From positions 71 through 64,070 of the forward strand of contig CAJIYT010000001.1 in NCBI GenBank assembly GCA_905181715.1: a stretch of 64,000 bases of DNA, in the 5' to 3' direction. Below are positions 6,363-60,906 of the stretch, one piece after another. The notes under the pieces were generated by a model. It had not been told where the DNA came from. It searched no databases and saw only the letters and a program-made list of their open reading frames with translations. Position 1 is the stretch's first letter. Every line of letters begins with the position of its first letter. Made by a program: the position numbers and the translations under genes. Source of the stretch: an uncultured Candidatus Poseidoniales archaeon. GTDB lineage: Archaea > Thermoplasmatota > Poseidoniia > Poseidoniales > Poseidoniaceae.

Positions 6363-6399
6363 GGGCGAGTTTGAAGTGTCTTGTTGCATTGAGTCTACC

Positions 6400-8790
6400 A
6401 TGCGAGGGCGAGCCGTCATCACAGTCTTACTGGGTTTGCTGTTTGTGATGCCGGTTGTATCGGCTGCCAATGGACGGGCTGAGCCCGGCTGTACAGAGAT
6501 GGATATTTCGACGATTTCTTCACAGGAATTAATCAGTAGCGATTTGTGTATCAAATTGGATTTAGGTATCCATTCATCAGGAGCGGTATTAGAGTTTGAC
6601 ATCATCGTGTCAGAAGGCGATTTAGATTTACTACTCTTCGATGAGAATGGCGTCCAAGCCTATGATTTAGGTAACTCATATCGCGACTATTTCATCGATG
6701 ATGCAAGTTTCGAGGGCGCTTTTGGCGAGTACGAGTTTGACTGGCAAGTACCTGTTTCAAGCCAGGCTAAGAATTGGTATATCGTGCTTGATAATCACAA
6801 TCATGATGGTGATGGTGGTCAGGGCGGTCAAGGTTTGATCGATGCTAGAGTGGCCTTTGCCATGGATGTCGCAAATGAATGGCAATGGACTCCTTATCAC
6901 GATGTGGTAAAAGTGAATCCCGGAATACGTGAGACCCTGTTGGGAGAGGGAACATTAATCCTCGATGCTGAGACCGGATTGGACATAAAAGTCGAGCCTA
7001 TCAGTGGTTCAGCCAATGTCTATATCCAAACCGTTGAGCAGAGCAGTGGTGGGCTTTACATCTCTGGAACTCTGATGGAAGAAGTCGATTCTACCAATTC
7101 ATTATCATGGACAGTTCCTGCTAACTTCAATGGGAAATCATTGGTCCTTCAATGCGATAATAGCGCTGGTTCTGAAGAGTTCAGAGCCACTATAACCGTC
7201 AAGGCTTCACCGCCGTTGAATGCTGTAGTAACCGATGATATTGATGAGATGGTGACCATTGATGAGACCTTTACTTTGGACGCAACCTCTTCACCAAATT
7301 TACTGAATCAGATTTCGATTATTCGCTGGGATATGGATGGTGATGGTTCATATGAAGTAGAAGGATGGACAGTTCAACATTCATATAATGAACCCGGAAC
7401 TTACAATGTATCGGTCGAATTAATATCGGCAGTTCAATCTACATCTTATGGTACTCATGTGGTAAAGGTTTCAGATGTAATCGATCCGATTGCCAGAATT
7501 ACTGGGACCGGCACCCAACTACTCGATGGCCGCTGGAAAGTCGAGCCAAATTCAGACATCTATTTTTCATCTGTCACTTCCAGCGATGATGATGAAATCG
7601 CAACTCGCGCTTGGTCTTTGGATGGCACTTCCTACGGCGGAGATGAATCTGTTACTATACAGTGGGCAGAACCTGGCAATCATAATCTAATACTGACCAT
7701 AACCGACAGTTCTGGTAATGCCGGTTCTGATAATGTGACAATATTCGTCGATGATGAGACCAAACCAGTAATCGATGAGCAATCGATAGAATCACTGAAG
7801 TCGGGGTTGGTAGGTGATGCAGTGACTTTTAGTGCATCAGCAATAGATGTCTTCGACGACTCTTCACAACTGGTTTACACTTGGGACGTCTTTCCAACTG
7901 TCGATGCAGATGGCGATGGAGATAAGAGAAATGATGCTGATTTAACTGGTAGAACCGTGAAGTATTCTTTTACTGAAACCGGTCGTCATGATGTGGTCTT
8001 AACAGTAAGTGATCCTTCTGGTAATAGTGATAGTTATTCATTCGAAGTGGTTATTGCTGCTCAGCCAGAATCGAGTTCGGGTTTTGCAATATTTATTGTA
8101 GTTCTATTCATTGCTGCAATAACCGGCGGTTTAGGAGTTATCGGAAATCGTATGATGCAACGCAAACATGCAGTGACTCTTCTTGTTGAGAGAGGCTTTT
8201 CTATTGGCGAGGCAGAAGCAAGAGTCGAAGCAGTCGCTCGCTCCAAGAGTTTGCCAATGCTGGCTAATGCCATGCAATTAGCGGGAATTGGAGAGGGTCA
8301 AGCTATGACAGAAGAACAAATCGCCCTTGCTGCAAAGGCAACTGAAATGGCGGCGATTTATGGTGCAGGGGGGAGCACGATGCAAACAAGTGACCCCAAT
8401 GCAGGATTCAGGCCAGCAATCCAACAGAATTCACAGAGCGCATCGATGATGGCCGGTGAGGCTTTAGCGGGATTGATGGATGAAGAACCCAAGAAGGTCT
8501 CTCAGCAAACAAATCAAGGAATAAACTCAGAAGATGATTTCATCGATCATCTACGAAGTGCACCAGCACCAACTCCGAAATCAGAAACAAATTCATCTGT
8601 TAAAATGAATGTTAGAAGTGGAGGAATATCTCTCCCGAGTTCGAAAAAATCTCCTGTCGAGAAGCCAAGCGGTATCAAAGGATCTTGTAGTGCGTGTTCT
8701 AAGGGTTTCATGATAGATTTACCATCTGGAGTGACTGAAGCATTAGTCGATTGTCCACATTGTGGTGTCGAGGTATTGTTCACACGTTGA
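6400..8790 (+). CDS. secreted PKD-repeat surface protein with a single TM and a cytoplasmic tail ending in a Cys4 zinc ribbon
   Basis: Signal-like MRGRAVITVLLGLLFVMPVVSAANG. PPC-like GDLDLLLFDENG module. Three PKD-like repeats (WDMDGDGSYE..YNEPGTYNVSVEL; WSLDGTSYGG..EPGNHNLILTITDSSGN; WDVFPTVDADGDGD..ETGRHDVVLTVSDPSGN). TM GFAIFIVVLFIAAITGGLGVIG (8078-8145). C-terminal CSAC-x18-CPHC (8686-8763). Track start 6376 is GTG; ATG 6400 is used here. Confidence 0.8.
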   Translation: MRGRAVITVLLGLLFVMPVVSAANGRAEPGCTEMDISTISSQELISSDLCIKLDLGIHSSGAVLEFDIIVSEGDLDLLLFDENGVQAYDLGNSYRDYFIDDASFEGAFGEYEFDWQVPVSSQAKNWYIVLDNHNHDGDGGQGGQGLIDARVAFAMDVANEWQWTPYHDVVKVNPGIRETLLGEGTLILDAETGLDIKVEPISGSANVYIQTVEQSSGGLYISGTLMEEVDSTNSLSWTVPANFNGKSLVLQCDNSAGSEEFRATITVKASPPLNAVVTDDIDEMVTIDETFTLDATSSPNLLNQISIIRWDMDGDGSYEVEGWTVQHSYNEPGTYNVSVELISAVQSTSYGTHVVKVSDVIDPIARITGTGTQLLDGRWKVEPNSDIYFSSVTSSDDDEIATRAWSLDGTSYGGDESVTIQWAEPGNHNLILTITDSSGNAGSDNVTIFVDDETKPVIDEQSIESLKSGLVGDAVTFSASAIDVFDDSSQLVYTWDVFPTVDADGDGDKRNDADLTGRTVKYSFTETGRHDVVLTVSDPSGNSDSYSFEVVIAAQPESSSGFAIFIVVLFIAAITGGLGVIGNRMMQRKHAVTLLVERGFSIGEAEARVEAVARSKSLPMLANAMQLAGIGEGQAMTEEQIALAAKATEMAAIYGAGGSTMQTSDPNAGFRPAIQQNSQSASMMAGEALAGLMDEEPKKVSQQTNQGINSEDDFIDHLRSAPAPTPKSETNSSVKMNVRSGGISLPSSKKSPVEKPSGIKGSCSACSKGFMIDLPSGVTEALVDCPHCGVEVLFTR

Positions 8791-17100: not shown

Positions 17101-18637
17101 TTTGATACTTGAAAACTCTATGCGGCAATTATCTATCACCTTCACTCCACCATTGGTGATGTTGAAAGCAGGAGCAGAATATAGTGCTACATTTAGAGCT
17201 ATTACGCAAACTGAAAACCCACAAACATTTGATTTCGAAATCCCTTTGGTGGTTATGGAAATCAAACAAATCGATATTTACATGAGCACTACGATCGGAG
17301 AAATAACCCCCGGGACAGGTTTCAGTCTTCTATTCAGTTTTGAGAATAATGGCAATCTAAATCATAACATAACCCCAACACTTACGCTTCCTTCCGGTTG
17401 GACCCAAATCAGTCAACTAATAACATTCGATTTATATTGGACGCAAAGCCATGAAATTCTCATCAATATCTACGCCGGTGATACGGCTAGATCTGGTCAG
17501 ATAGCATTATTCCTAACTAGTGGTCAAGATTCATGGTCATGGGTTCAAGAGGTTACGATTGAAAAATTGGCTGTTATTGATGTTCAATTCGCTAGATTAG
17601 AAATTGGCGATGAACGTTGGGATTCGGTAATGGGGCCTGGTTCACATCCGACATCAGAGCGAATGACTTTCACTTGGATAATCACAAATGATGCTGACAA
17701 TATCTGGTCGCCAGAAATAGATTTAACCATGGACGACGATCTTATTGGCGAATGCGAACCGATGGATGATGTAAGCAATAGCGACGAAGTTTTGCTCGTT
17801 TGTACAATGATTATTGATAGTGATGCCACCCCAGGCACTGAACCCAAATTTACTGTTTCGATGAGTGATGGTTCGTCTAATCATCAATTCAACATTACTC
17901 TATTCGTGGCATTTGAACGCAGTGTGGAATGGGATGTAGTCGGGCCAAGTCAATTCAATGTCGGCGAATCGACATCTATCGATGTAAGAATAGTCAATAC
18001 GGGTAATACTAGATTGACGCATACTTTACAGTTTGCGGGCCCGAAAGGCTGGCAGATAAGTAGCGATAATGCCGATTTCATCTTCGACCTCGAAGCAGGC
18101 CAATCAGATTCTATTGAATTGTCGGTTCTCGCTTCACAAGCCGGAGAAGGAGAACTCTTGCTATGGTTGAGTAACGCAGACGATGTCGAAGCATCTTCGC
18201 ACTCCCTCCCTATTGCTTCGATGGGGGTGATAAATGATGATTCTTCTTCCGAAAGCGAAACCTCTAACATAATCGGGGTAATTGGTTTACTAGTCATCGC
18301 ATTTTTGGTTGGTTTGGTAATTATACAATTACGCTCTAAGTTCTCCAGTAAAGACCAATCGCAACAACAATATTCCCAAATGTCACTGAATTCCTCCATT
18401 GATGGCCCAGTAAAACCAGCCAATAATGCCCAAGGGCAGCAACTGAAAGAATACCAAGAACAAGCCGAAAAATATGCTCAATATCAAGTTGAACTTGCAG
18501 AATATGAACAGAAGATGCAACAATACGAGGGGCCGGATAATCAAAGTGCCGAAGGCACCGAAGAAACCGCTGAAAACAACGAATCAGGCGCTGATTACGG
18601 GACAGATGAACCTTTGATAGATTCGGATGATTCTTGA
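14108..18637 (+). CDS. membrane-anchored subtilisin-like serine protease (S8) with P-domain-like, CARDB and multiple Ig-like modules
   Basis: Catalytic motifs VAVADSGLD (Asp), HGTHVACTV (His), NSWG (oxyanion Asn) and GTSMATPNAAG (Ser). CARDB-like GEDVTLTMAIQNFGNIEAEDVEVEF...ISESNNRLDWVVNV. TM IIGVIGLLVIAFLVGLVIIQL (about 18270-18332). Q/E-rich acidic cytoplasmic tail of about 100 aa. GTG start as in the track, with a signal-like N-terminus LLLTVLLLSIFSSLITPA. Confidence 0.85.
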   Translation: MRTASLLLTVLLLSIFSSLITPANEPEIAEDDTQWQRIELSADTMKGLVGTLELSLTGEERAILADSRLGIYDQGGLLLKRDIPEELLIPRSDLSLLLISDQVHMATARTALSEVQGLVVREYISPSGLLVQGTNNALKQAKSTIGVVAGLPVPVAMVVDESLWTHPSQLLRLESWRDEGLLPGVKLEDEHGSTLHQDLHLVATAHLEELVMVDDGRYRGLFTGDLNQLSTLASEISTAWVRAEPQFSIDNNKARSHMKITGSDGIDDHFATELDGSGQIVAVADSGLDEDHGDFGTRVVGNVDVIGDGSSADLHSGHGTHVACTVLGDGTRGTYSGVAPAAELYLQAMENDNTGNFQSPSLNNLFNTAYNAGARIHTNSWGSSQASSQGKYTSESEDVDDRANYYDRYYNGVEGLTILFASGNDGPGVGTASSPATAKNSVTVGSHLNRGGGSPDTISQSSSRGPTDDNRIKPDVIAPGAYVRSCLSQDATDTSGGTVQTGGWYIEYSGTSMATPNAAGSAALIREYILEIAQRPAPQGALVKALLVLGARDLGNRDIPNNDEGWGRIDLQNTLAPSDRGIWVDDRSVLSGTGNVKTYTFNVTTSGQPFKAVLCWSDERGSRFSTNQLVNDLNLEIETPSGTLYRGNQFSQGRSIEGGTFDSTNNLEVVLIDSAESGIWTIRAKDGGHSGQKSQPFALAVSGAGVNDLRPDPMVLPNLQVGVAIPQIGEDVTLTMAIQNFGNIEAEDVEVEFLVENQSQASVEYDLGPGGLRNIAWNWQPVNSGGNTLSFIVDPDGLIEEISESNNRLDWVVNVTTPGVKLESPAPIFTLSDEGKTTTSWNVTLTNTALLATNASVTVTSVTRITDGVLMPWYVSIGEGSYSLSGSGHVDLSATMVHPELPTPGVYIVSILGTDDDNSIQYPYDLQFVVPILGAVRFESAYTTIPIDPRTGSSIDFIFHNDGNGDVGYDLFLLSPVGWSSGFDDLSSEGGASSGSTGLILENSMRQLSITFTPPLVMLKAGAEYSATFRAITQTENPQTFDFEIPLVVMEIKQIDIYMSTTIGEITPGTGFSLLFSFENNGNLNHNITPTLTLPSGWTQISQLITFDLYWTQSHEILINIYAGDTARSGQIALFLTSGQDSWSWVQEVTIEKLAVIDVQFARLEIGDERWDSVMGPGSHPTSERMTFTWIITNDADNIWSPEIDLTMDDDLIGECEPMDDVSNSDEVLLVCTMIIDSDATPGTEPKFTVSMSDGSSNHQFNITLFVAFERSVEWDVVGPSQFNVGESTSIDVRIVNTGNTRLTHTLQFAGPKGWQISSDNADFIFDLEAGQSDSIELSVLASQAGEGELLLWLSNADDVEASSHSLPIASMGVINDDSSSESETSNIIGVIGLLVIAFLVGLVIIQLRSKFSSKDQSQQQYSQMSLNSSIDGPVKPANNAQGQQLKEYQEQAEKYAQYQVELAEYEQKMQQYEGPDNQSAEGTEETAENNESGADYGTDEPLIDSDDS

Positions 18638-35202: not shown

Positions 35203-35961
35203 GTGCGACGCCCACTCATGCGACAGAGCCTACCTCGGGTTCCTCAGGACCGAATCGCGGTCCTAATCGGTAGCAAGGGTGCTACGCGTCGTAAACTGGA
35301 GGAAGCCTCTGGTTGTATGCGTCTGGTCATTGATTCCGAAAGTGGGGACATCGAGGTATTTTGGCCGGAAGCTGGTAAATTCGATCCGGTTAAAGCGTTA
35401 AAATTACCAGATGTTATCAAAGCGATATCGCGCGGTATGGCACCTGCAAATGCAATTCAGTTACTACAAGATGAATGGTTTTTTGAAATCGTAGACCTCC
35501 GTAATCACGTCGGAAAAAGGTCGAATCAACAACGTCGTATCAGATCACGCTTAATCGGCTCTGAAGGAAAGATTCGTAAATTGATAGAGGATCTCACAGG
35601 TTCACAAATCACCATTTACAATTCAACCATAGTAATCGTCGGTGAGGGCGATGGCCTATCTTTGGCTCGCAAAGCAGTTGAGATGTTATCACAGGGTTCA
35701 GAGCATGGTTCCGTAATCAAGATGCTCGAAAAGGGTCGTAGACGCCATCGTCTTGAAAACCGTAGTATTGATTATATTGAAGTCAAAGAGGATACTTCTG
35801 AAATCAGTGCAGGTTTCCAAGCTTTGGTTCCGGGTCTGAACGCTGTTGTTCGCAGAAATCGTCGCCTTAAATCTCATCAAGTAGATCCTGAAGATGAAGA
35901 GGCTGTGATTGCGGTTATGACTCTAAATTCTGATGAGAGTGTTCAATGGGAAGAGGAGTGA
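35203..35961 (+). CDS. KH-domain RNA-binding protein (Dim2/Pno1-like)
   Basis: Two KH-like modules (RIAVLIGSKGATRRKLEE; RSRLIGSEGKIRKLIEDLTG). Position downstream of aIF1A-Rio1. The start is GTG 35203 or ATG 35218. The 3' end overlaps the convergent gene by 47 nt. Confidence 0.8.
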   Translation: MRRPLMRQSLPRVPQDRIAVLIGSKGATRRKLEEASGCMRLVIDSESGDIEVFWPEAGKFDPVKALKLPDVIKAISRGMAPANAIQLLQDEWFFEIVDLRNHVGKRSNQQRRIRSRLIGSEGKIRKLIEDLTGSQITIYNSTIVIVGEGDGLSLARKAVEMLSQGSEHGSVIKMLEKGRRRHRLENRSIDYIEVKEDTSEISAGFQALVPGLNAVVRRNRRLKSHQVDPEDEEAVIAVMTLNSDESVQWEEE

Positions 35962-37753
35962 CCTTTCTTTTCTTTATCATTAAACCCAAGGCAAATCCCA
36001 CTAGTAATAGAATTGCGATACCTGGGGCAAAGGATGGCACTGCGTTCGAATAACTTAGTGAAGCACCGGTGACAACCAGATAGTGGGCATTGTTGCCCTC
36101 ATCGCGTTCATCAATGATATTAAATGGATCAATAGTCAAACGTAGATCCCACTGTCCTCGATCAGAGACGGTATAATTCCAAGTCATATTCTCCGACATA
36201 TCACTGAGAGATCCCGCAGGGAGTAATTTGCTATCTACCAGAGTCCATTGTACGTCAGCATTACGGTCTGCTGGTGCAGCTTCTAACCAAATAGTTAAGG
36301 CTCCACCATACACTTCATTGCTCTCTATTAGGCTAGATAATTGCACTTTACCAGTATTTTCTCCAGGTTTTACTACTAGTTTATCAAGTGTAGTTTGTGA
36401 TAGATTCCAGGATATATCCTTGCCCGGCAATACTTGGAATGCTGCGGGTATCGTGATGAATTCATTTCCAGCTTCATCAACTAAGGTTGCACGTAATAGT
36501 AGGTATTGTCTGCTTTTAGTCGCCCAACTGGTCAGTCCAACCGTGCCACTTAGTCCAGTTTCAGCAATACTCAACCAGGCCCCTGATATGTCGGGCATGG
36601 TACCTATTCCATTGTAATCAAAACCATATTCGATTTTGCTTTCAACAAAATCTATTCCGGAACCCTCATCATAAGAACTGAAGGAAATATTTGCTACATC
36701 GGTTTTACTTGATGTCAATTCATCTACAGTCCATCCGATCCCTTCTGGTTTTGTGATGTCAACCTTGATGTTGAATTGTATTTCATCGCCTTCGTTGCCA
36801 ACCAAATCAACCGGCTTGAAACCGATGATTGTTTGCCCTTCTACAAGGCTTAGTGTAGTGGATTCAGAGGCGATGATGGTCCAAACTCCACTTTGATTCA
36901 ACTTGACATTAGCGATACCACTACCGCTACCATCGTCAGCAGAAGAAAGAATGTCATCGATGAGAACCTCGCTGGAATCTTGCCAAACCTTTCCATTGCC
37001 GATTGTCGGAGAAGTCATCGTTGGAGGTGTGCGGTCAATTCCCATGAACAGGGTTTGCGATGCAGATAGTCCACTACCATCGTAGACTGTTAATCGAGGA
37101 TTGTATTTCCCCTCTGCGAGGTCGCTAGGACTCCATAGCCAACCGTAATCAAGAGTGCCAGGTCCATCATTGGCTACACTACCTGATCCTGGAACATTTA
37201 CCAGCCCAGCATGGGTTAAATCATCGTCGACAGCAGTCCAAGAAAAACTCAAAGTCCCAGTTTCTTCGATATCAAACCACGCTCTGTCAGAATTTGAAGC
37301 ACCACTACCATGATCTGGACTGAGGACGCTGAAAGAAGTGATTACCGGGATTTGATTAGCGATGGTAAAATTATTCGATATGAACCAATTACTATGGTTA
37401 GAAACATCGGAGTCCCATCCTCTTACTCGTAGGGAGTAACTGCCATTAGCGAATTGTGTACTATCGAGATGCATCAGCCACGGAGTGGAAGTCATATTCT
37501 CAACCTCATTCCAAACAGTAGAGTCAGCAGAGATTTCAACTTGCAAATTAGCAAGGGTTCCACTGCCACTAATCGAGAATGTCAAAGTGTTTAGACCAGT
37601 AAAAACCTCATCAGCATCGGGACCACCGGTAAAAGTAATTGTAAGAGCACTATCTACAGATTGAACGATTGATTTTTCCTCGAGCAAAGACTCTGTTGGC
37701 CATGAAACCATGACCAGAGAAAGTGCCAGAACAATCAACAGCAGCGGCCTCAT
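35915..37753 (-). CDS. secreted Ig-like repeat surface protein with a C-terminal TM anchor
   Basis: Signal MRPLLLIVLALSLVMVSWP. CARDB-like end IIDERDEGNNAHYLVV. TM FAPGIAILLLVGFALGLMIKKRK. Confidence 0.8.
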   Translation of the reverse strand: MRPLLLIVLALSLVMVSWPTESLLEEKSIVQSVDSALTITFTGGPDADEVFTGLNTLTFSISGSGTLANLQVEISADSTVWNEVENMTSTPWLMHLDSTQFANGSYSLRVRGWDSDVSNHSNWFISNNFTIANQIPVITSFSVLSPDHGSGASNSDRAWFDIEETGTLSFSWTAVDDDLTHAGLVNVPGSGSVANDGPGTLDYGWLWSPSDLAEGKYNPRLTVYDGSGLSASQTLFMGIDRTPPTMTSPTIGNGKVWQDSSEVLIDDILSSADDGSGSGIANVKLNQSGVWTIIASESTTLSLVEGQTIIGFKPVDLVGNEGDEIQFNIKVDITKPEGIGWTVDELTSSKTDVANISFSSYDEGSGIDFVESKIEYGFDYNGIGTMPDISGAWLSIAETGLSGTVGLTSWATKSRQYLLLRATLVDEAGNEFITIPAAFQVLPGKDISWNLSQTTLDKLVVKPGENTGKVQLSSLIESNEVYGGALTIWLEAAPADRNADVQWTLVDSKLLPAGSLSDMSENMTWNYTVSDRGQWDLRLTIDPFNIIDERDEGNNAHYLVVTGASLSYSNAVPSFAPGIAILLLVGFALGLMIKKRKVTPLPIEHSHQNLES

Positions 37754-37895
37754 CAGTTACCTTGACGAGGGGGGTCATCCTTCAATGCTCGCATGAGATA
37801 ACATTAGTCGGACGGGGTTGTTTTCTAACAACAACCACCGCCACAAGGTTTCTGATTCGATTGATTCAAGTGCTGTGACCCGTCCATTCCCGACC

Positions 37896-40646
37896 ATGCA
37901 GAGGCAGAGGGCCATCGTCATCGCGTCGATGTTGATGCTTCTAATCGCCTTTCCAATCTTGGTACAAGCGGAGGATAGTGGCGGTGTACAGGCTAGTGCA
38001 TCGACCTTGACCTTTTCTGGCGATGCGGTTGAAGGCGGAACAATTATTTTTTATCTGAGCCTACAAAATACAAACCCCACAGAGGCTTCAGGAGTGACTT
38101 ATTCTCTCTATCGAGAGGAGATTTCCTCGGGTTATAGATTGAAAACAGCAGCTATTGATATCGCTGGAGATACGACGGTAACAGTCAATGCGACATGGTC
38201 TCAATTAACCGCAGGCGAGCATCAAATATGGGTCGAATTCAGTAATGGCAATGTACAGACTTTCTATGAGTCTTTTACCGTTGAAGCTTTACCTGATTTA
38301 AAGGTGGTTTCAACGACGTTTGACCCTGTAACTGGAGCAATGAGTGGTGATACAGTTGGGGTTAGTATCGAGATCCAAAATAGCGGTACAGTTAATGCTG
38401 GAACCAGCACTCTGAGCATTGATTTTGCTGGAACTTCCAGTGACCACATCACTCCTGCGATAGATGGACAATCCACCGGGTGGGTAAATGCCACCCTAGT
38501 AGCTCCAAATGCTGGTACATGGCCGGTAGACATTGAATTGGATATCGATGATATGGTGATAGAGTCTGATGATGAGAATGATTATTCCATTGAATATGTA
38601 ATAACTAAACGCATGGATTTGTTCCATCAAGGCGGTGTTACAGTTACCACTACCGAAGGGGCTCTCGATGGCCCTTGGACATTCTCGGGCATTCTTGGAC
38701 GTACAAATGGCCAAGGTAGCGATGAAGTTAGTATGATAATAGAGATTGCCGACTCAAATAGTCTACAACTACAACCATTCGTAGTAAACATCAGCGGAGG
38801 AGAGAATACTGTCAAGCAATGGTCACATATATTGACGAGAGAACAATTATCTCTCAATCCAGCGATCTACCATTTTGAGGTCATAATCAATCCGTTTTCC
38901 GGGGACTCATATACCCAAGAAAACACCAGTAACGATCGTACCTCATCGACTTTGACGATTTTCCAAATCCCAGATGTAGTAGTGGATACAACGGCAATCC
39001 CATCAACTCCAGCAGTCGCCGGTGGCGATAGTTTGACCTGGACCGTAATGCTGGCTAATAATGGTCAAATCGATGTATCAGGCTATATTACCTATACTTG
39101 GGAAAATCAAACATTTGACAGTCCAGAGATGGTTATTTCTGCTGGAGAAAATGGTAAATCATGGACGATTGAATTAGTTGCAGAACCAGGTGAACATACT
39201 GCGAGATTCACAGCCGATTGGATTGAATCGGAAGGTTCTTGGGATGCTATATCGGGTAATTCCCATGCTGAAAATAATGTTAGTGTACTCTCACAATTAC
39301 GTCTAATTTGGTCAGATCTCACTTTTTCATTGGTTGATGAAAGTGGAGAAAGCGTTAATTTGCCTCTGAATAACGGAGAGAATTACACGGTTTCAATCGA
39401 TTTATCATCATTCGATTCAGGTTCGTTAAATTTCACTTGCGGCGACTCAAGCGGTAAAGTATACGCTGTAATTCCGGTTACGGTTACAGCAAGTAATCAA
39501 TGGGTTACTGTCGGTTGCACTTTCACCGCCGATGCCCCAAATTCCGAATTGATGCTGATTCCATCCGATGGTGGGGTCACTACAACAAAAACTTGGAGCT
39601 GGCCTACTGCGCTTCCACTAGGAACAGAAATAGCAGGAAAAGAAGACTATAGTTTTGCTACTGCGATGATAATTCTCTTCATCGCTTTGGTCTTGATTGC
39701 AATATTGATAGTTGCGTTAATCCTCACCAGAGAGAGCGATGGCGAGGTCGATAGGGATATCTTTGATTATTGTCCTGCCTGTGATGGTGAATTAGAAGGC
39801 GATGAAAACCGTTGTCCATCTTGCCGCTTCAATCTCAAGAAGGCGAGAATGCAATTCCATGATTGTGAGGAATGTGCAGAGTTGGTTCCTGACCTGCTCG
39901 ATAATTGTCCATATTGTGGCGTTGCACAAGACACATCAAAGTACTTTGAAAAGCGTGAGCGCTTGGAAATTAAGCAGACTGTAGACCTACCAGACGAAGA
40001 AGAGTTCGATGAAGAAGCAATCGTTTCCGGAACCGAGAACTTTGAACAAGCGGTGCAGGAATTCGGTTATGATGCCGACGATCTCGAGGGCCATTGGGAT
40101 GAGCAACTCGCAGATGCTGAAACTGAGGTTGAAGCTGCTCAAGACCGTCTCGATATAGAAATAGAACAATCTGAACTCGATGATGAGGAGCGTGAAAAGA
40201 TAGTCGAGACCACTCTCAAGAGTATTGAAGACTCATTCTCAGGCAATGATATCGATGCGATATTGTCTGAAAAAGACGAAGTTGTTTCACATGCTGATGA
40301 TGGTGAAGAATTAAGCGCGAGCGATGCTAAAATACGCGGACGCCTGTTCGAAATAACTGGTGAAAAAGGCGTAATGCCCGGCGATAAGGTGAATATTGGT
40401 GGTGCTTCAGAGTCGGTAATGGTCGGCAATGAGGTGCCGACTGAAGCTTTGGATTTCAGTTTCAATGAAGAGCAGGATAAGCCCTTAGAGGACTCCCCCA
40501 GAAAAGCGCCGCGCCGGCGAAGAAATAAGTCTGAAGATGTAGAGGAAGAAGTCGCTGCTGATGAAAAAGCAGAATGTGGAGTTTGTGGCGCGGATCTAGG
40601 CATTGAAGAATTAGAATGCAAAACCTGCGGTGCTAAATTCGAGTGA
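37896..40646 (+). CDS. CARDB-repeat surface protein with a single TM and a 300-aa acidic cytoplasmic tail carrying three Cys4 zinc ribbons
   Basis: Signal MQRQRAIVIASMLMLLIAFPILVQAED (track start 37818 is TTG). CARDB-like endings (ESDDENDY, QENTSNDR). TM FATAMIILFIALVLIAILIVALILT (about 39654-39728). CPAC-x10-CPSC and CEEC-x10-CPYC (39771-39917), then CGVC-x10-CKTC (40575-40628). Confidence 0.8.
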   Translation: MQRQRAIVIASMLMLLIAFPILVQAEDSGGVQASASTLTFSGDAVEGGTIIFYLSLQNTNPTEASGVTYSLYREEISSGYRLKTAAIDIAGDTTVTVNATWSQLTAGEHQIWVEFSNGNVQTFYESFTVEALPDLKVVSTTFDPVTGAMSGDTVGVSIEIQNSGTVNAGTSTLSIDFAGTSSDHITPAIDGQSTGWVNATLVAPNAGTWPVDIELDIDDMVIESDDENDYSIEYVITKRMDLFHQGGVTVTTTEGALDGPWTFSGILGRTNGQGSDEVSMIIEIADSNSLQLQPFVVNISGGENTVKQWSHILTREQLSLNPAIYHFEVIINPFSGDSYTQENTSNDRTSSTLTIFQIPDVVVDTTAIPSTPAVAGGDSLTWTVMLANNGQIDVSGYITYTWENQTFDSPEMVISAGENGKSWTIELVAEPGEHTARFTADWIESEGSWDAISGNSHAENNVSVLSQLRLIWSDLTFSLVDESGESVNLPLNNGENYTVSIDLSSFDSGSLNFTCGDSSGKVYAVIPVTVTASNQWVTVGCTFTADAPNSELMLIPSDGGVTTTKTWSWPTALPLGTEIAGKEDYSFATAMIILFIALVLIAILIVALILTRESDGEVDRDIFDYCPACDGELEGDENRCPSCRFNLKKARMQFHDCEECAELVPDLLDNCPYCGVAQDTSKYFEKRERLEIKQTVDLPDEEEFDEEAIVSGTENFEQAVQEFGYDADDLEGHWDEQLADAETEVEAAQDRLDIEIEQSELDDEEREKIVETTLKSIEDSFSGNDIDAILSEKDEVVSHADDGEELSASDAKIRGRLFEITGEKGVMPGDKVNIGGASESVMVGNEVPTEALDFSFNEEQDKPLEDSPRKAPRRRRNKSEDVEEEVAADEKAECGVCGADLGIEELECKTCGAKFE

Positions 40647-40799
40647 GTGCCTGTCAGTTCTCATAGGGTTCGTCATCGCCATGCGGCTCGGTCGGTCGTA
40701 AACTTCATTCAGACAGACTGGCGATTTGGCGGCAACCCTTGAATGCTTTGACGCCAAATGGCCGTGCCATTGATATCATAACCCCTGCTGAGCAAGTCG

Positions 40800-41351
40800 A
40801 TGAGGACTAGGTTTGTGATGCCGCTATTGCTGTTATCAGTCCTAATTACACCAATTATCACCGGTTGTATAGGGTTGGTCCCAGCGAGGGAGTTCTTAGA
40901 AGGAATGAGAGATGAACCAAAACCATCCTCAGAAACAGATGAAGTCGTAGTCTCGCATATCTTCACCACTATTTCACCTCAACTCTTCACTCCACCTGCT
41001 GACAACTTCATGGTCGATGAACATGTCACAGAGATCAGTGCTTATCTGTCTGTGCAGAACTTTCTTTCCGAACAAACTGAATTTTTTCCCAATGAGACCA
41101 GATATGTATCGGCAATATTGACTGATTATGCTGGAAACAAAGTTTGGGAGGAAGAGGTTAGTGAAACCAGTACGATACTTGAGACTCAATTACAACCACC
41201 ATTTGCTGAGGGAGAATGGACCTTACAAGTAGAGGCACGTGGATATGGAGAAGAGATTCTTGGTCAGTTTCAAGATACTTTTCACATCGTTATTACAATC
41301 GAGAGATCTTGTACCATCTATCCGCTAGATGAAGGTTGTAGTTACGATTAA
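40800..41351 (+). CDS. putative secreted lipoprotein, unknown function
   Basis: N-terminus MRTRFVMPLLLLSVLITPIITGCIG with a lipobox-like ITGC. No recognisable domain. Confidence 0.55.
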   Translation: MRTRFVMPLLLLSVLITPIITGCIGLVPAREFLEGMRDEPKPSSETDEVVVSHIFTTISPQLFTPPADNFMVDEHVTEISAYLSVQNFLSEQTEFFPNETRYVSAILTDYAGNKVWEEEVSETSTILETQLQPPFAEGEWTLQVEARGYGEEILGQFQDTFHIVITIERSCTIYPLDEGCSYD

Positions 41352-59200: not shown

Positions 59201-59830
59201 AGACAATTAATCGGTGAAGATAATTATGTCAATTACACTACAAATGTTTGGATACTCAAAATCGATTCAGTTGAAGGAGAAGAACTTCAGGCTTTGAGAG
59301 CGAATGTCGAAGCAGATTGGCGAGTATCAAGTGCTATGGATTGGTCGACTGAACACGAAAAGGTAGAACGGGATAGCGGTCTGATATTCGGTACTCCTGG
59401 CCTTCTTTCTCTACAATTCGTAGTTGCTAGTCTCGCCGCAGTCGCATCTTCTTTCGTTTTCCTATCCCTGGTGCTTAATCAGAGGAAAAAAGAATTGGCA
59501 ATCCTGCAGGCGATTGGAGCAAGTCCTAGTCAAATAATCAGGCTGGTTTTGTTTGAGATTTTGTCAATCGTAATGGTTTCGATGGCACTTGGTGTTCTGC
59601 TTGGCATGGGCTTGGCTTTAGCATTCAACGGTTTCTTCGGAGTATTCGGTTTCATCTTCCAAATATTCGGTAGTTCAACCGCCACGCCTATCGATAGAGA
59701 TCTGGTTTGGCCATGGTTCGAATTGGGTCTTGTTTCACTCTCGGTATTCATCGCTGTGGTGATGGCATTGTTATTCACCACGAGAAAGGCATTGCGTTCA
59801 GATTTAGCCAGTGTGCTCAAGGGGGAGTGA
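56276..59830 (+). CDS. FtsX/MacB-type ABC permease, single chain with two FtsX modules and two large ectodomains (1,184 aa)
   Basis: ATGA overlap with the ATPase. TM1 LAVFAGVFLASLVITTVLSY. First FtsX block around LEQRRREISIHRVIGADSKGL. Second block around LNQRKKELAILQAIGASPSQII. The C-terminus ends RKALRSDLASVLKGE. Confidence 0.85.
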   Translation: MSIKRRIRDFPDNMRLAAISSWRGRERGLAVFAGVFLASLVITTVLSYGVGLSQIFFQESLEQEPFDAKIEFSSAPAYNTTGWSNDTSVMSGVCDELVEWKEIMDCTIVFGRQGIHGGGFFNRDFVVAQPLVMESITAPNPLWANISFTYPELADSGPPISNMRGIRLLGPEAFDGEISERLGVQIISGMGEWPTPEVMEEKRGVIIPSNVASEAKAEVGDNLAELTFKYTVDKKLAVEGGFDDDECDGDVNFADNGYIYCKIPITLQNLTIVGIYEPWDLGNPTLSPNPIFTIYSVMDVEDQVKLIDADHIYLGITLDRTQMPTTSTAEAEEWLQDLGVRISDSTFAGGEIELYYFDIVGGTIIFLNIFLGLIQTFDYIIMIPIVVLSLSVLIYGLILSLEQRRREISIHRVIGADSKGLQGMVLLELSVMASVAWLVGYLLALAAVPLVLSSVGFMAFKPGDISVNPALGVVATMATAFATVGLALLFGRSRARDFIELEIEEGVRKVIEVNKPKRWLHWSLFLIGLLGMIDTWLEMNGSEDGIISNFFIEGLINIFGPFMLWIGGALLLARIGAAGPKIMQLIFGRTALLKDVKRGLQGSGSTESVNRLAIIMLLTLSIVTLAAVQGYTGTLVDERTASATVGSDLQITFEEPVNSSTALSIVEQVYGSEATLLATNIPSLTLRSLDNGDTYQAWVLLENGEDILDWPEQAVPGSSVDTALESYQDLTFSAGEDAAYALKLWGSGRRGGSSDSGDELLAADDDRSEELTLIWDEIEFETSTDGDGEAPNLTEQLAGYKSLTKIDMSGLNLSGQNLSNRDLGLADFTSTNLTGANLSGSNLSESLLVGTSLRGANLSGANLGNAIIVVDGESFGDTDLSNASLTGAFGFFDFSNAARIDGATCPDGDSSSISSCVSTSMPPPLALPLLSADVSIKITNTEHSIDLRYIGTHEFIPGVSSVTMSNSLIIGESSWRQLIGEDNYVNYTTNVWILKIDSVEGEELQALRANVEADWRVSSAMDWSTEHEKVERDSGLIFGTPGLLSLQFVVASLAAVASSFVFLSLVLNQRKKELAILQAIGASPSQIIRLVLFEILSIVMVSMALGVLLGMGLALAFNGFFGVFGFIFQIFGSSTATPIDRDLVWPWFELGLVSLSVFIAVVMALLFTTRKALRSDLASVLKGE
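58697..58990 (+). other. pentapeptide-repeat segment inside the second ectodomain of the permease
   Basis: MSGLNLSGQNLSNRDLGLADFTSTNLTGANLSGSNLSESLLVGTSLRGANLSGANLGNA...DLSNASLTGAFGFFDFSNAARIDGA. This follows the A(D/N)LxX periodicity and carries many N-x-S/T sequons. Confidence 0.75.
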
Positions 59831-59832
59831 AT

Positions 59833-60906
59833 ATGGACGATAAAGAGATAATTGCCAAGGCTGACAGCCACGATGGCAATGCAATAAATCTTCAACAGGA
59901 TAGCCCTGTTCAAGATGATGCGGTAATAGACGACAACGAGGTAATTCTTGAAGCGGACAGCCTATACCACGTCTATGAATCTAAAGCTGAAGACGGTAAT
60001 GTTGTCGCTTTACGTGGTCTTCACGTCAAGGTCTTGGCCGGCGAAGCAGTAGCGGTTGTCGGACCATCTGGCAGCGGTAAATCTACCCTGCTAAAGTGCC
60101 TCGGCGGATTGATGAAACCGAGCGCAGGTTCGGTTTCTCTTGCCAACAAGAATATGACTAGACTTTCAGGAAAGGAATTGGTAAAACTCAGACAGAAAAC
60201 GGTCTCATTTATCTTCCAAGAAGGTAACCTCTTGCCAGATCTTTCAGCGCGTGACAATGTCGCTCAACCCTTACGCCACCAAGGTGTTAGGGCAAAGGTC
60301 GCTCACAAGAAAGCGATGGACATCCTAGAGCGTTTAGGAATGGGTCACAGAGCGATGGCAAGACCATCTATGCTCAGTGGAGGCGAGCAGCAAAGAGTCG
60401 CTATCGCCAGAGCTCTCATCACCGAACCGCGTCTTATCCTTGCCGATGAGCCGACCGGAGCATTGGACCCGGTTACCAGTAGAGAAGTACTCAAATTATT
60501 CAAAGATCTACACGATAATGACGGAGTTTCATTCTTGATAGTAACCCACTCTAAGGAGGTTTCAATGTTTGCTGATAGATCACTCGAATTGCGTGATGGT
60601 AGGTTCGTCGCTGAACATGGCAGAGATGTTAATGTGAAAGACCTCAGTGCAGGTAGAGAATTAATCGTCGATGACTTTGGTACGATTACCCTTCCTCCTG
60701 ATTTGTTGACCAGAATGGGTGGTCCTGGCAGATACACAGTTGGTGAGGTATCAAGTGGTAATCTGCAATTGGTTGGCGATGTGGTTTCGGAGACGGGAGA
60801 AATGGTATTGGCCGCTAACTGTCCTGCCTGCAAACACGATTACCATGCTGACGACTCGCAACAATGCCCAGTCTGTGGTGCAAGCAGACCGATGGTCGAA
60901 AAGTGA
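59833..60906 (+). CDS. second ABC ATP-binding protein with N- and C-terminal extensions (AbrB-like segment plus Cys4 zinc ribbon)
   Basis: ATG 59833 follows GGGGGAGTGA; track start 59707 lies inside the permease gene. GPSGSGKSTL, LSGGEQQRVAIARAL and ILADEPTGALD. The C-terminal 110 aa or so contain GTITLPPDLLTRMGGPGRYTV and CPAC-x11-CPVC (60820-60876). Confidence 0.85.
   Translation: MDDKEIIAKADSHDGNAINLQQDSPVQDDAVIDDNEVILEADSLYHVYESKAEDGNVVALRGLHVKVLAGEAVAVVGPSGSGKSTLLKCLGGLMKPSAGSVSLANKNMTRLSGKELVKLRQKTVSFIFQEGNLLPDLSARDNVAQPLRHQGVRAKVAHKKAMDILERLGMGHRAMARPSMLSGGEQQRVAIARALITEPRLILADEPTGALDPVTSREVLKLFKDLHDNDGVSFLIVTHSKEVSMFADRSLELRDGRFVAEHGRDVNVKDLSAGRELIVDDFGTITLPPDLLTRMGGPGRYTVGEVSSGNLQLVGDVVSETGEMVLAANCPACKHDYHADDSQQCPVCGASRPMVEK

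What the first reader, a model, noticed from the sequence alone, without database searches (positions are those of the whole stretch)
39729..40646. 300-aa acidic cytoplasmic tail with three identically spaced CxxC-x10-CxxC zinc ribbons on a CARDB surface protein
After the single TM (about 39654-39728) the protein continues for about 300 residues on the predicted cytoplasmic side. The tail carries CPAC-x10-CPSC and CEEC-x10-CPYC (39771-39917). Next comes a highly acidic, E/D-rich region, then a terminal CGVC-x10-CKTC (40575-40628). The same x10 spacing three times suggests duplicated rubredoxin-like knuckles. A large ectodomain wired to cytoplasmic zinc ribbons looks like a transmembrane signalling or anchoring device, not a passive adhesin.
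Basis: partly seen in the sequence, partly recalled or inferred. Interest (0 to 1): 0.6.

Follow-up and report, generated by a model that had tools for sequence, protein, structure and literature searches.

The report
Archaeal surface protein with zinc-ribbon tail
A cell-surface protein found in every Marine Group II archaeal genome I could inspect has a long, acidic tail inside the cell with three zinc-binding knuckles, and this tail is better conserved than the exterior, so it most likely docks the surface protein to an unknown internal partner.

Summary
The gene (true start ATG 37896, 916 aa) encodes, in order:
- a signal peptide;
- five beta-sandwich (CARDB-type) ectodomains;
- one TM helix (39654-39728);
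- a 305-aa tail with net charge -57.

The tail carries CPAC-x10-CPSC, CEEC-x10-CPYC and a terminal CGVC-x10-CKTC.

The family is the positional orthologue across Poseidoniales. 222 species genomes hold a relative. Synteny (eIF1A-Rio-KH-612-aa surface protein-this gene-183-aa lipoprotein-like gene-membrane Cas4-uS2) is kept in all 80 loci inspected. All 12 tail Cys and the x10 spacing are kept in 77 of 80.

The tail is 59-65% identical between families; the ectodomain is 36-42%. AlphaFold gives three confident zinc ribbons and one long helix in an otherwise disordered acidic tether that carries conserved motif islands.

The most conserved element is not a ribbon. It is the island SASDA-x2-R-x6-TGExGVxPG. 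Divergent members lose the terminal ribbon, or replace the double ribbon with a cupredoxin-like domain, but keep this island. The x10 spacing is simply canonical for this zinc-ribbon family.

Best reading: a type I envelope protein whose tail is a docking platform for an unknown cytoplasmic partner. It is uncharacterised. I class it as a new variant of known zinc-ribbon membrane tethers (ZitP, GltJ, CdpC).

The parts
37896..37970 (+). Signal peptide MQRQRAIVIASMLMLLIAFPILVQA. This is the true start of the gene; the TTG at 37818 is an ORF-caller extension.
   Evidence: Almost all homologues start here, with a basic n-region, a hydrophobic core and an A-x-A-like end before EDSGG. Hydropathy peak at residues 30-50.
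37971..39653 (+). Ectodomain: five consecutive beta-sandwich (CARDB/Ig/MG-like) domains plus a short stalk.
   Evidence: Pfam CARDB E 6.9e-9. AlphaFold full-length model has pLDDT about 90 and is all-beta over residues 30-575. Foldseek finds only generic strings of beta-sandwich domains. Identity to other families is 36-42%.
39654..39728 (+). Single transmembrane helix.
   Evidence: Kyte-Doolittle mean up to 3.7. Modelled as a helix. K/R bias is 0.26 before and 2.63 after the helix.
39729..39770 (+). Conserved juxtamembrane segment RESDGEVDRDIFDY.
   Evidence: R, V, R, D, I and Y are invariant in 54 tails. The same EEVE..F.F/Y lead-in precedes the double ribbon of an unrelated soluble protein (hhalign probability 97.6%).
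39771..39917 (+). Double zinc ribbon: CPAC-x10-CPSC, a 13-residue FNLKKARxQFHD linker, then CEEC-x10-CPYC.
   Evidence: Searches give coordinates. Pfam DZR PF12773 scores 26.9 bits here and passes in orthologues. All 8 Cys are invariant. pLDDT 80-84.
39918..40040 (+). First part of the acidic tether: a conserved GxxQDxSKYFExRER stretch just after the second ribbon, then a low-confidence acidic linker.
   Evidence: Q704, S707, Y709, F710 and R713 are invariant in the 20-sequence alignment. pLDDT falls below 50 at tail residues 84-94. The 115-residue stretch from here through the helical segment has net charge -37.
40041..40223 (+). Acidic helical segment with conserved FGYDxDDLEGHWDE and a long amphipathic helix of about 32 residues.
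   Evidence: AlphaFold helix at tail residues 116-147, pLDDT about 90. W760, D761, A767, E768, V771, E772 and R777 are invariant.
40311..40463 (+). Conserved island LSASDAxIRxxLFEITGExGVMPGDxV...GNExP...DFSF inside the disordered tether. This is the most widely conserved element of the whole tail.
   Evidence: A834, S835, D836, A837, R840, T847, G848, E849, G851, P854, G855 and V858 are invariant even in members without the ribbons. It was the pattern used to find 222 genomes.
40500..40529 (+). Basic patch RKAPRRRRNK.
   Evidence: R899 and R900 are invariant in Poseidoniales. Members that lack the third ribbon end in this patch. With the ribbon it resembles bL32 only weakly (E 0.04).
40569..40646 (+). 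C-terminal zinc ribbon AECGVCGADLGIEELECKTCGAKFE plus the stop codon.
   Evidence: Four Cys, G921, G924, G938 and F941 are invariant. pLDDT 86. Foldseek superposes it on RanBP2/NZF/ArnA-type ribbons at about 1 A, but the E-values are not significant.
35915..37753 (-). Divergently transcribed 612-aa Ig-like surface protein with a C-terminal TM and a tail of only 19 aa. It is a conserved neighbour.
   Evidence: Pfam Big_13 and CARDB. Present next to the gene in 78 of 80 loci. Tail length.
40800..41351 (+). 183-aa lipoprotein-like exported protein; conserved downstream neighbour.
   Evidence: Lipobox-like LLSVLITPIITGC. Present in 79 of 80 loci. Highest contig depth of the three genes in metatranscriptomes.

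Best explanation
The gene encodes a type I (signal peptide, single-pass) envelope protein specific to Marine Group II archaea (Poseidoniales).

**Outside the cell:** a rod of five beta-sandwich domains.

**Inside the cell:** a 305-aa tail that acts as a docking platform. Its parts, in order:
- a membrane-proximal double Cys4 zinc ribbon;
- a roughly 200-aa acidic, mostly disordered tether with a conserved amphipathic helix and an invariant linear-motif island (SASDA..R......TGExGVxPG);
- a basic patch;
- a terminal Cys4 zinc ribbon.

**Proposed mechanism:** the ribbons and the island bind one or more conserved cytoplasmic proteins. This physically couples the surface protein, which is probably part of a complex with the two conserved exported neighbours, to an intracellular structure. 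Bitopic or membrane-bound zinc-ribbon tethers such as ZitP, GltJ and CdpC work this way.

**Shown here:** anatomy, topology indicators, zinc-site conservation, stronger constraint on the tail than on the ectodomain, order-wide orthology, and transcription.

**Inferred:** that the tail binds protein partners, and that its role is anchoring or positioning, not enzymatic signalling. The identity of the partner is not known.
For: - The tail is 59-65% identical against 36-42% for the ectodomain in the same protein pairs.
- All 12 Cys and the 10/13/10 + 10 spacing are kept in 77 of 80 orthologous loci.
- 222 species-representative genomes hold a relative, and the best 80 are all Poseidoniales or marine Euryarchaeota MAGs.
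- Synteny is kept in all 80 loci and in a divergent clade.
- AlphaFold gives confident small zinc ribbons plus a helix in an otherwise low-confidence acidic chain, with no globular or enzymatic domain.
- No Pfam or NCBIfam output domain was found.
- The individual ribbons superpose on protein-binding RanBP2/NZF/ArnA ribbons (weak).
- A second, unrelated surface protein in the same window (6376-8790) has the same plan, with a conserved tail and a terminal ribbon.
- Topology: signal peptide, single TM and K/R bias.
- The gene is transcribed in seawater metatranscriptomes.
- Precedents for zinc ribbons as cytoplasmic docking modules of membrane proteins: CdpC (bioRxiv 10.64898/2026.07.16.738847), GltJ (PMC11135422) and ZitP (PMC5182065, PMC5182063).
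Against: - No partner is identified, and no cytoplasmic protein gene is linked in the conserved neighbourhood.
- Both kinds of ribbon can be lost or replaced in divergent members, so zinc ribbons as such are not strictly required.
- No dedicated topology predictor was available.
- Zinc binding is inferred from sequence only.
- Contig depth in RNA runs is modest, similar to eIF1A and below uS2. This gives no support for a major coat protein.
- Foldseek and PDB sequence hits for the tail are not significant.
Confidence: 0.5

Rival explanations
1. Outside-in signalling receptor. Ligand or contact at the ectodomain changes what the tail binds, for example by sequestering or releasing a transcription or translation factor as anti-sigma factors do, or by releasing the tail through intramembrane proteolysis.
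For: - A large ectodomain is wired to a conserved cytoplasmic module.
- Zinc-ribbon-TM-sensor architectures are common, e.g. P0168.
- The GltJ zinc ribbon acts as a conformational switch (PMC11135422).
- The basic patch plus terminal ribbon could bind nucleic acid or a factor.
Against: - There is no kinase, cyclase, HTH or other output domain.
- No regulator gene is adjacent in any of the 80 loci; the wHTH genes lie beyond dus.
- The TM helix has no Gly or Pro helix-breakers of the kind typical of site-2-protease substrates (direct reading).
- The gene is single-copy and order-wide, with housekeeping-like synteny. It is not expanded or variable as sensors usually are.
Confidence: 0.2
2. Self-association device. 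The tail ribbons and the amphipathic helix oligomerise copies of the protein, or join it to other ribbon-tailed surface proteins, under the membrane. This would order a surface lattice without any separate cytoplasmic partner.
For: - There is a conserved amphipathic helix of about 32 residues at high pLDDT.
- A second ribbon-tailed surface protein occurs in the same genome.
- The basic patch sits opposite a very acidic tether, which could give intermolecular or intramolecular electrostatic pairing.
Against: - The two tails share no sequence similarity and have different ribbon spacing, x10 against x18.
- Net charge -57 disfavours tail-tail packing.
- RNA depth does not suggest a dominant lattice protein (a poor measure).
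Confidence: 0.12
3. Nucleic-acid or ribosome tether. The basic patch plus C-terminal ribbon, which looks like a ribosomal protein, binds rRNA, ribosomes or DNA and holds them at the membrane.
For: - The profile of 54 tails hits bL32 and eL43 zinc ribbons, including their basic lead-in (E 0.04-5).
- The gene sits among translation genes (eIF1A, Rio, KH/Pno1-like, uS2) in every locus.
Against: - The E-values are not significant.
- The tail as a whole has net charge -57.
- The basic patch is weak or absent in the cupredoxin clade.
- Synteny with translation genes may simply reflect a slowly rearranging region.
Confidence: 0.05
4. The tail is extracellular (inverted or misread topology) and the Cys clusters form disulfides or bind metal outside the cell.
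For: One clade carries a cupredoxin-like domain, a fold that is usually extracytoplasmic, in the place of the double ribbon.
Against: - There is a signal peptide plus exactly one TM.
- K/R bias is 0.26 before the TM and 2.63 after it.
- Cys4 zinc ribbons are typical of the reducing cytoplasm.
- The cupredoxin-like domains lack a conserved copper-ligand set. P0159 has no His or Met after the Cys (direct reading).
Confidence: 0.03

Closest known systems
Pfam DZR (PF12773) / zinc_ribbon_2-type (PF13240) membrane proteins of bacteria and archaea
   Same: The ribbons have the same CxxC-x10-CxxC units. A tandem pair sits next to a TM helix, with an ectodomain on the other side of the membrane. Orthologues pass the DZR gathering threshold.
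   Different: - Usual members, such as P0168 here, are type II: ribbons at the N-terminus, then the TM, then the ectodomain.
- This family is type I. The ribbons come after the TM, followed by a roughly 200-aa tether, a family-specific island and a third terminal ribbon.
- The function of the generic family is unknown.
CdpC (HVO_0399) of Haloferax volcanii, membrane anchor of FtsZ1 (bioRxiv 10.64898/2026.07.16.738847)
   Same: - The layout matches almost position for position.
- Zinc ribbon at the membrane: CdpC 1-60, here tail 1-78.
- Long acidic disordered linker: CdpC 243 aa, here about 200 aa.
- Conserved island inside the linker: CdpC 207-253, here tail 194-248.
- C-terminal C4 zinc ribbon: CdpC 304-346, here tail 282-305.
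- The paper reports remote multi-ribbon relatives in all Thermoplasmatota classes.
   Different: - CdpC is peripheral. It has an amphipathic helix and a C3H ribbon, with no TM and no ectodomain.
- Here there is a real TM, a C4+C4 double ribbon and a 560-aa ectodomain.
- Sequence homology could not be tested, because the CdpC sequence was not obtainable with the tools.
- FtsZ binding is untested.
GltJ of Myxococcus xanthus (PMC11135422) and ZitP of Caulobacter crescentus (PMC5182065, PMC5182063)
   Same: Both are bitopic membrane proteins. Their cytoplasmic zinc-ribbon or zinc-finger domains, together with linker motifs, recruit cytoplasmic partners (MglA/MglB/AglZ for GltJ, PopZ for ZitP). Their extracytoplasmic part belongs to a surface machine (gliding adhesion complex, pilus).
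   Different: - They are bacterial, with the ribbon at the N-terminus and a single ribbon each, plus other partner domains (GYF, DUF3426).
- No sequence relationship was detected.
ZipA of E. coli; classical cadherins (established knowledge, functional analogy only)
   Same: Both have a single TM, a long flexible cytoplasmic linker and a terminal partner-binding module. In cadherins the disordered cytoplasmic tail is also better conserved than the Ig-like ectodomain.
   Different: There are no zinc ribbons, the folds and lineages differ, and ZipA has almost no exterior domain.

Membership tests
Pfam CARDB (PF07705) | Profile score above the gathering threshold (22.7 bits). | tested here: met
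   36.3 bits, E 6.9e-9, residues 159-255. Orthologues score 32-63 bits.
Pfam DZR, double zinc ribbon (PF12773) | Profile score above the gathering threshold (27.3 bits), covering two CxxC-x10-CxxC units. | tested here: inconclusive
   The window protein scores 26.9 bits (tail alone) or 21.3 bits (whole protein), just below the cut-off. Orthologues P0130, P0134 and P0140 score 36.2, 31.9 and 31.6 bits. PF12773 is precomputed for most homologues. The full model length 1-45 is matched.
Cys4 zinc ribbon (structural class) | Two CxxC knuckles on beta-hairpins that coordinate one Zn. | tested here: met
   Sequence motifs. AlphaFold short strands with pLDDT 80-86. About 1 A superposition on solved ribbons. 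Actual zinc binding is not testable here.
CdpC family (FtsZ1 membrane anchor) | N-terminal amphipathic helix plus a C3H zinc ribbon for peripheral membrane binding. | tested here: not met
   The protein has a true TM helix and a C4+C4 double ribbon instead.
CdpC family (FtsZ1 membrane anchor) | Long disordered linker with a conserved internal island, then a C-terminal C4 zinc ribbon. | tested here: met
   Low pLDDT at tail residues 84-94, 161-164, 193-196, 224-235 and 242-277. Island at tail 194-248. Terminal ribbon with pLDDT 86.
CdpC family (FtsZ1 membrane anchor) | Detectable sequence or profile homology to HvCdpC, and direct binding of FtsZ1 by the C-terminal ribbon. | not testable with these tools
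There was no multimer prediction and no bench work.
Archaeal S-layer / major coat protein | Very high abundance and lattice formation. | tested here: inconclusive
   Metatranscriptome contig depth is 2-4, like eIF1A, against 8-14 for uS2 and 7-13 for the neighbouring 183-aa gene. Contig depth is a poor measure, and lattice formation is not testable.
Cupredoxin (PF13473), for the variant clade only | Profile score above the threshold (27 bits) and a complete type-1 copper ligand set (His, Cys, His, Met). | tested here: inconclusive
   P0159 scores 31.9 bits (passes) and P0148 scores 22.5 bits (below). The ligands after the Cys are not conserved between the two. The window protein itself has no such domain.

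The most novel reading that the evidence does not exclude
The tail is a transmembrane counterpart of the haloarchaeal FtsZ1 anchor CdpC, or functionally of ZipA or GltJ. On this reading the terminal Cys4 ribbon, on its roughly 200-aa acidic tether, binds FtsZ or another cytoskeletal or GTPase partner. The invariant SASDA/TGExGVxPG island would recruit a second factor. In these probably wall-less, uncultured marine archaea, one polypeptide would then couple the outer surface coat directly to the division or positioning machinery.
Probability: 0.12. Interest if true: 0.8.

Novelty: new variant of a known kind. Interest (0 to 1): 0.5.

Why it matters
Marine Group II archaea are among the most abundant planktonic archaea and have never been cultured. 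Their envelope and cell biology are known only from genomes.

- This protein is an order-wide positional orthologue. The part under the strongest constraint is a cytoplasmic tail that has no homologue outside the lineage.
- It gives a concrete, clonable handle for finding what lies under the membrane of these cells: a 305-aa soluble tail, three zinc sites and one invariant motif.
- It also lets one test whether archaea use zinc-ribbon tails generally to wire surface proteins to internal structures. At least one further unrelated surface protein in the same window has the same plan.
- If the partner were FtsZ, it would extend the newly described CdpC mechanism beyond haloarchaea, in a transmembrane form.

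Tried and rejected
- **Foldseek of the tail model against PDB:** no hit with E <= 0.001. Only about 25-residue ribbon superpositions were found.
- **PDB sequence search with the 54-tail profile:** the best hit was bL32 at E 0.04. I kept it only as a weak rival.
- **NCBIfam:** nothing above threshold.
- **Foldseek of the full-length model:** only generic strings of beta-sandwich domains (mastigoneme, complement MG domains) at rmsd above 20 A. This gives no functional lead.
- **Search for stand-alone homologues of the tail among 1.84 billion representatives:** 77 hits. The short ones proved to be fragments or frame-shifted calls of the same gene.
- **N-glycosylation sequon count as a topology marker:** not informative. 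The query has 8 sequons in the ectodomain against 7.1 expected from composition, and 1 in the tail against 0.7 expected.
- **Recent triplication of one knuckle:** rejected. x10 is the family-wide spacing.
- **Copper protein outside the cell, for the cupredoxin clade:** rejected as unsupported, because the ligand set is incomplete.
- **HvCdpC sequence for a profile comparison:** could not be obtained. The genome search and the fetch from genomes were shut, so FtsZ, SepF and small GTPases of this genome could not be examined.
- **Taxon names for the divergent members:** cluster look-up gave only 'Euryarchaeota/Methanobacteriota archaeon'.
Full report
**1. Observation.**
The ORF 37818..40646 (+) is real. 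Almost all homologues in the two alignments start at the Met encoded at 37896, which gives a 916-aa protein. It opens with a typical signal peptide, MQRQRAIVIASMLMLLIAFPILVQA, followed by EDSGG.

Hydropathy shows only two hydrophobic segments: the signal peptide, and one TM helix at residues 613-637 of the 942-aa reading, which is nt 39654-39728.
- CPAC-x10-CPSC, 39771-39824;
- CEEC-x10-CPYC, 39864-39917;
- CGVC-x10-CKTC, 40575-40628.

The tail has 90 acidic and 33 basic residues, net -57. Shuffling the tail gave one such motif in only 10 of 20,000 trials and never three. Pfam finds CARDB (E 6.9e-9). It also finds the double-zinc-ribbon model DZR over its full length at 26.9 bits, just under the 27.3-bit cut-off, and orthologues pass that cut-off.

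**2. What family it is.**
A search restricted to the tail found 842 proteins of about 900-960 aa with the same architecture. The few that carry names are called Poseidoniales or Poseidoniaceae 'CARDB domain-containing' or hypothetical proteins.

An exhaustive HMMER search of 1.84 billion cluster representatives with the tail alone returned only 77 hits. Every strong one has the same ectodomain-TM-tail plan. The short ones are fragments or frame-shifted gene calls, and the weakest are generic multi-ribbon proteins. The tail therefore has no stand-alone or foreign homologue.

In one genome per GTDB species, 222 genomes encode a relative. The 80 best are all Marine Group II MAGs of both families, Poseidoniaceae and Thalassarchaeaceae. 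The window is closest (82-84%) to a Thalassarchaeaceae MAG.

The neighbourhood is kept in all 80 loci wherever the contig reaches far enough. Its order is eIF1A, Rio kinase, KH protein, a divergent 612-aa Ig-like surface protein, this gene, a 183-aa lipoprotein-like gene, a membrane Cas4-like nuclease, uS2 and dus. The gene is therefore the order-wide positional orthologue. It forms a conserved trio with two other exported proteins.

**3. Conservation pattern.**
All 12 tail cysteines are invariant in a 20-sequence and a 54-sequence alignment. The spacing 10/13/10 plus a terminal 10 is identical in 77 of 80 loci; the other 3 lack the third motif, and at least one of them (L062) has a truncated match.

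Against members of other families, the ectodomain is 36-42% identical and the tail 59-65%. Column identity by segment is:

| Segment | Column identity |
|---|---|
| Juxtamembrane + double ribbon | 0.86 |
| Island at 831-885 | 0.82 |
| Terminal ribbon | 0.80 |
| Ectodomain | 0.62 |
| Spacer before the basic patch | 0.48 |

**4. Divergent members are informative.**
- Six representatives (P0132, P0133, P0135, P0136, P0138, P0141) keep the double ribbon and the island but end in the basic patch, with no third ribbon.
- A clade of about 35 clusters (P0148, P0159, P0197-P0229) has a cupredoxin-like domain exactly where the double ribbon should be. PF13473 scores 31.9 bits in P0159. These members keep the island and the terminal ribbon. 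They occupy the same syntenic slot.
- The copper ligands of this domain are not conserved, so I read it as a structural beta-sandwich. I do not take it as evidence that the tail is outside.
- Across all 21 aligned sequences, the invariant tail residues are A834, S835, D836, A837, R840, T847, G848, E849, G851, P854, G855, V858, G870 and F880, plus a few in the acidic helix. The non-Cys island is thus the most indispensable element. The membrane-proximal module is exchangeable.

**5. Structure.**
AlphaFold on the 54-tail alignment gave mean pLDDT 64.5 and pTM 0.23, so there is no global fold. By segment:
- double ribbon, pLDDT 80-84;
- a 32-residue helix at tail 116-147, pLDDT about 90;
- a short helix at the start of the island, pLDDT about 67;
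- terminal ribbon, pLDDT 86;
- everything else is low-confidence.

The full-length model shows five beta-sandwich domains over residues 30-575 at pLDDT about 90, a TM helix at 586-612, and the same tail.

Foldseek finds nothing significant for the tail. The single ribbons superpose at about 1 A on RanBP2-type, NZF and ArnA ribbons, which are protein-binding knuckles, but E exceeds 1. The ectodomain matches only generic chains of Ig/MG domains. A PDB sequence search with the tail profile gives only bL32 and eL43 ribbons with their basic lead-in, at E 0.04 or worse.

**6. Topology.**
No dedicated predictor was available. These indicators all agree on a cytoplasmic tail:
- a cleavable-looking signal peptide in all 47 orthologues listed;
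- one TM helix;
- mean K+R in the 15 residues before the TM of 0.26, against 2.63 after it, over 46 sequences;
- 2 Cys in the ectodomain against 12 Cys in four-Cys sites in the tail.

Sequon counts were uninformative.

**7. Expression.**
Contigs at least 99% identical from four seawater or aquatic metatranscriptomes cover pieces of the gene, including the tail: 39757-39971, 39668-39991 and 40479-40730. Their word depth is 2-4. That is similar to eIF1A and below uS2 (8-14) and the 183-aa neighbour (7-13). The gene is transcribed. The data do not show the dominance expected of a major coat protein, but contig depth is a poor measure.

**8. How it most likely works.**
The tail has no enzymatic or DNA-binding output domain. 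It is mostly disordered and carries small, strongly conserved binding-type elements. It is under stronger constraint than the exterior. This is the signature of a docking platform for conserved cytoplasmic partners.

Documented precedents exist for zinc ribbons doing this on membrane proteins:
- ZitP binds PopZ (PMC5182065, PMC5182063).
- In GltJ, a cytosolic zinc ribbon and linker motifs bind MglA, MglB and AglZ in a trans-envelope adhesion machine (PMC11135422).
- The haloarchaeal CdpC has a membrane-bound ribbon, a 243-aa disordered linker with a conserved island at 207-253, and a C-terminal C4 ribbon that binds FtsZ1 (bioRxiv 10.64898/2026.07.16.738847).

The present tail matches the CdpC layout almost position for position: ribbon(s) 1-78, island 194-248, terminal ribbon 282-305. 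It has a real TM helix and a large ectodomain in place of an amphipathic helix.

I could not test homology or binding, so this remains an analogy. I commit to 'anchoring/docking tether' at about 0.5 and to the FtsZ-type partner at about 0.12. The rivals are a signalling receptor, a self-association device, a ribosome or nucleic-acid tether, and an extracellular tail. They are weighed in their own sections.

**9. Recurrence of the plan.**
In the same window, the 804-aa PKD-repeat surface protein (6376-8790) also has one TM, a tail of about 214 aa and a terminal CSAC-x18-CPHC ribbon. Its homologues keep the ribbon cysteines almost throughout (two invariant, two in at least 90% of the ten aligned sequences) and several tail motifs: RKHAxxLLxERGFS, DPNAGFRP and SGGISLP.

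The two tails are unrelated in sequence. Ectodomain-TM-long tail-terminal ribbon is therefore a repeated design in this lineage. Earlier notes of this scan describe the same design in other MGII and Thermoplasmata genomes. I treat those notes as leads only.

**10. Novelty.**
Full-text searches found nothing on this protein. Database names are 'hypothetical' or 'CARDB domain-containing protein'. The parts (CARDB, DZR-type ribbons) are known, and so is the principle of a zinc-ribbon membrane tether.

What is new:
- the type I orientation;
- the 300-aa tail with its family-specific island;
- the exchangeability of the proximal module;
- the order-wide orthology in an abundant uncultured archaeal group.

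I class it as a new variant of a known kind, with interest 0.5.

Noticed in passing
window 6376-8790 (+): The 804-aa PKD-repeat surface protein has a signal peptide, one TM, a cytoplasmic tail of about 214 aa and a terminal zinc ribbon CSAC-x18-CPHC (8686-8763). In homologues down to 32% identity the ribbon Cys are kept almost throughout (two invariant, two in at least 90% of the ten aligned sequences), as are the motifs RKHAxxLLxERGFS, DPNAGFRP and SGGISLP. It has the same design as the finding but an unrelated sequence.
   Followed up: partly
proteins P0148, P0159, P0197-P0229; locus L081 7001-9841: A clade of positional orthologues with the same synteny has a cupredoxin-like domain (PF13473) directly after the TM, in place of the double zinc ribbon. 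The copper-ligand set is incomplete. These members keep the island and the terminal ribbon.
   Followed up: partly
proteins P0132, P0133, P0135, P0136, P0138, P0141: These divergent family members lack the C-terminal zinc ribbon and end in the basic RRRxxRRRK patch. Their taxon is not resolved beyond marine 'Euryarchaeota archaeon'.
   Followed up: partly
window 59707-60906 (+): An ABC-type ATPase ends in a C-terminal zinc ribbon CPAC-x11-CPVC (60820-60876).
   Followed up: no
window 37818-37895: The 26-codon TTG-started N-terminal extension of the ORF is not shared by most homologues. The real start is ATG 37896, which leaves a divergent intergenic spacer of about 142 nt to the 612-aa gene.
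   Followed up: yes
window 40800-41351 (+): The 183-aa lipoprotein-like neighbour has no Pfam or NCBIfam match and is conserved in 79 of 80 loci. It shows the highest metatranscriptome contig depth of the surface trio (7-13 against 2-4).
   Followed up: partly
loci L038 and L046: Contigs that carry this archaeal locus are filed in MAGs labelled Salipiger bermudensis and Rhodobiaceae bacterium. These are probably binning contaminations of bacterial MAGs with MGII contigs.
   Followed up: no
loci L077 and L080: One MAG (RS440) carries the locus on two contigs, with the same downstream synteny as far as the shorter contig reaches. This looks like two strains in one bin, not a paralogue.
   Followed up: no
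window 18260-18634 (+): The cytoplasmic tail of the mega-subtilase in this genome (about 99 aa after its TM) is Q/E-rich and contains no Cys. Earlier scan notes report zinc-binding tails on the subtilase in other MGII genomes.
   Followed up: partly
protein P0191 (213 aa, metagenomic): This soluble protein begins with the same acidic lead-in plus double ribbon (SDEEVEGEVFEFGCPEC...; hhalign probability 97.6% to tail residues 3-66), followed by an acidic and helical region. The proximal module therefore also exists as the head of a cytoplasmic protein.
   Followed up: partly
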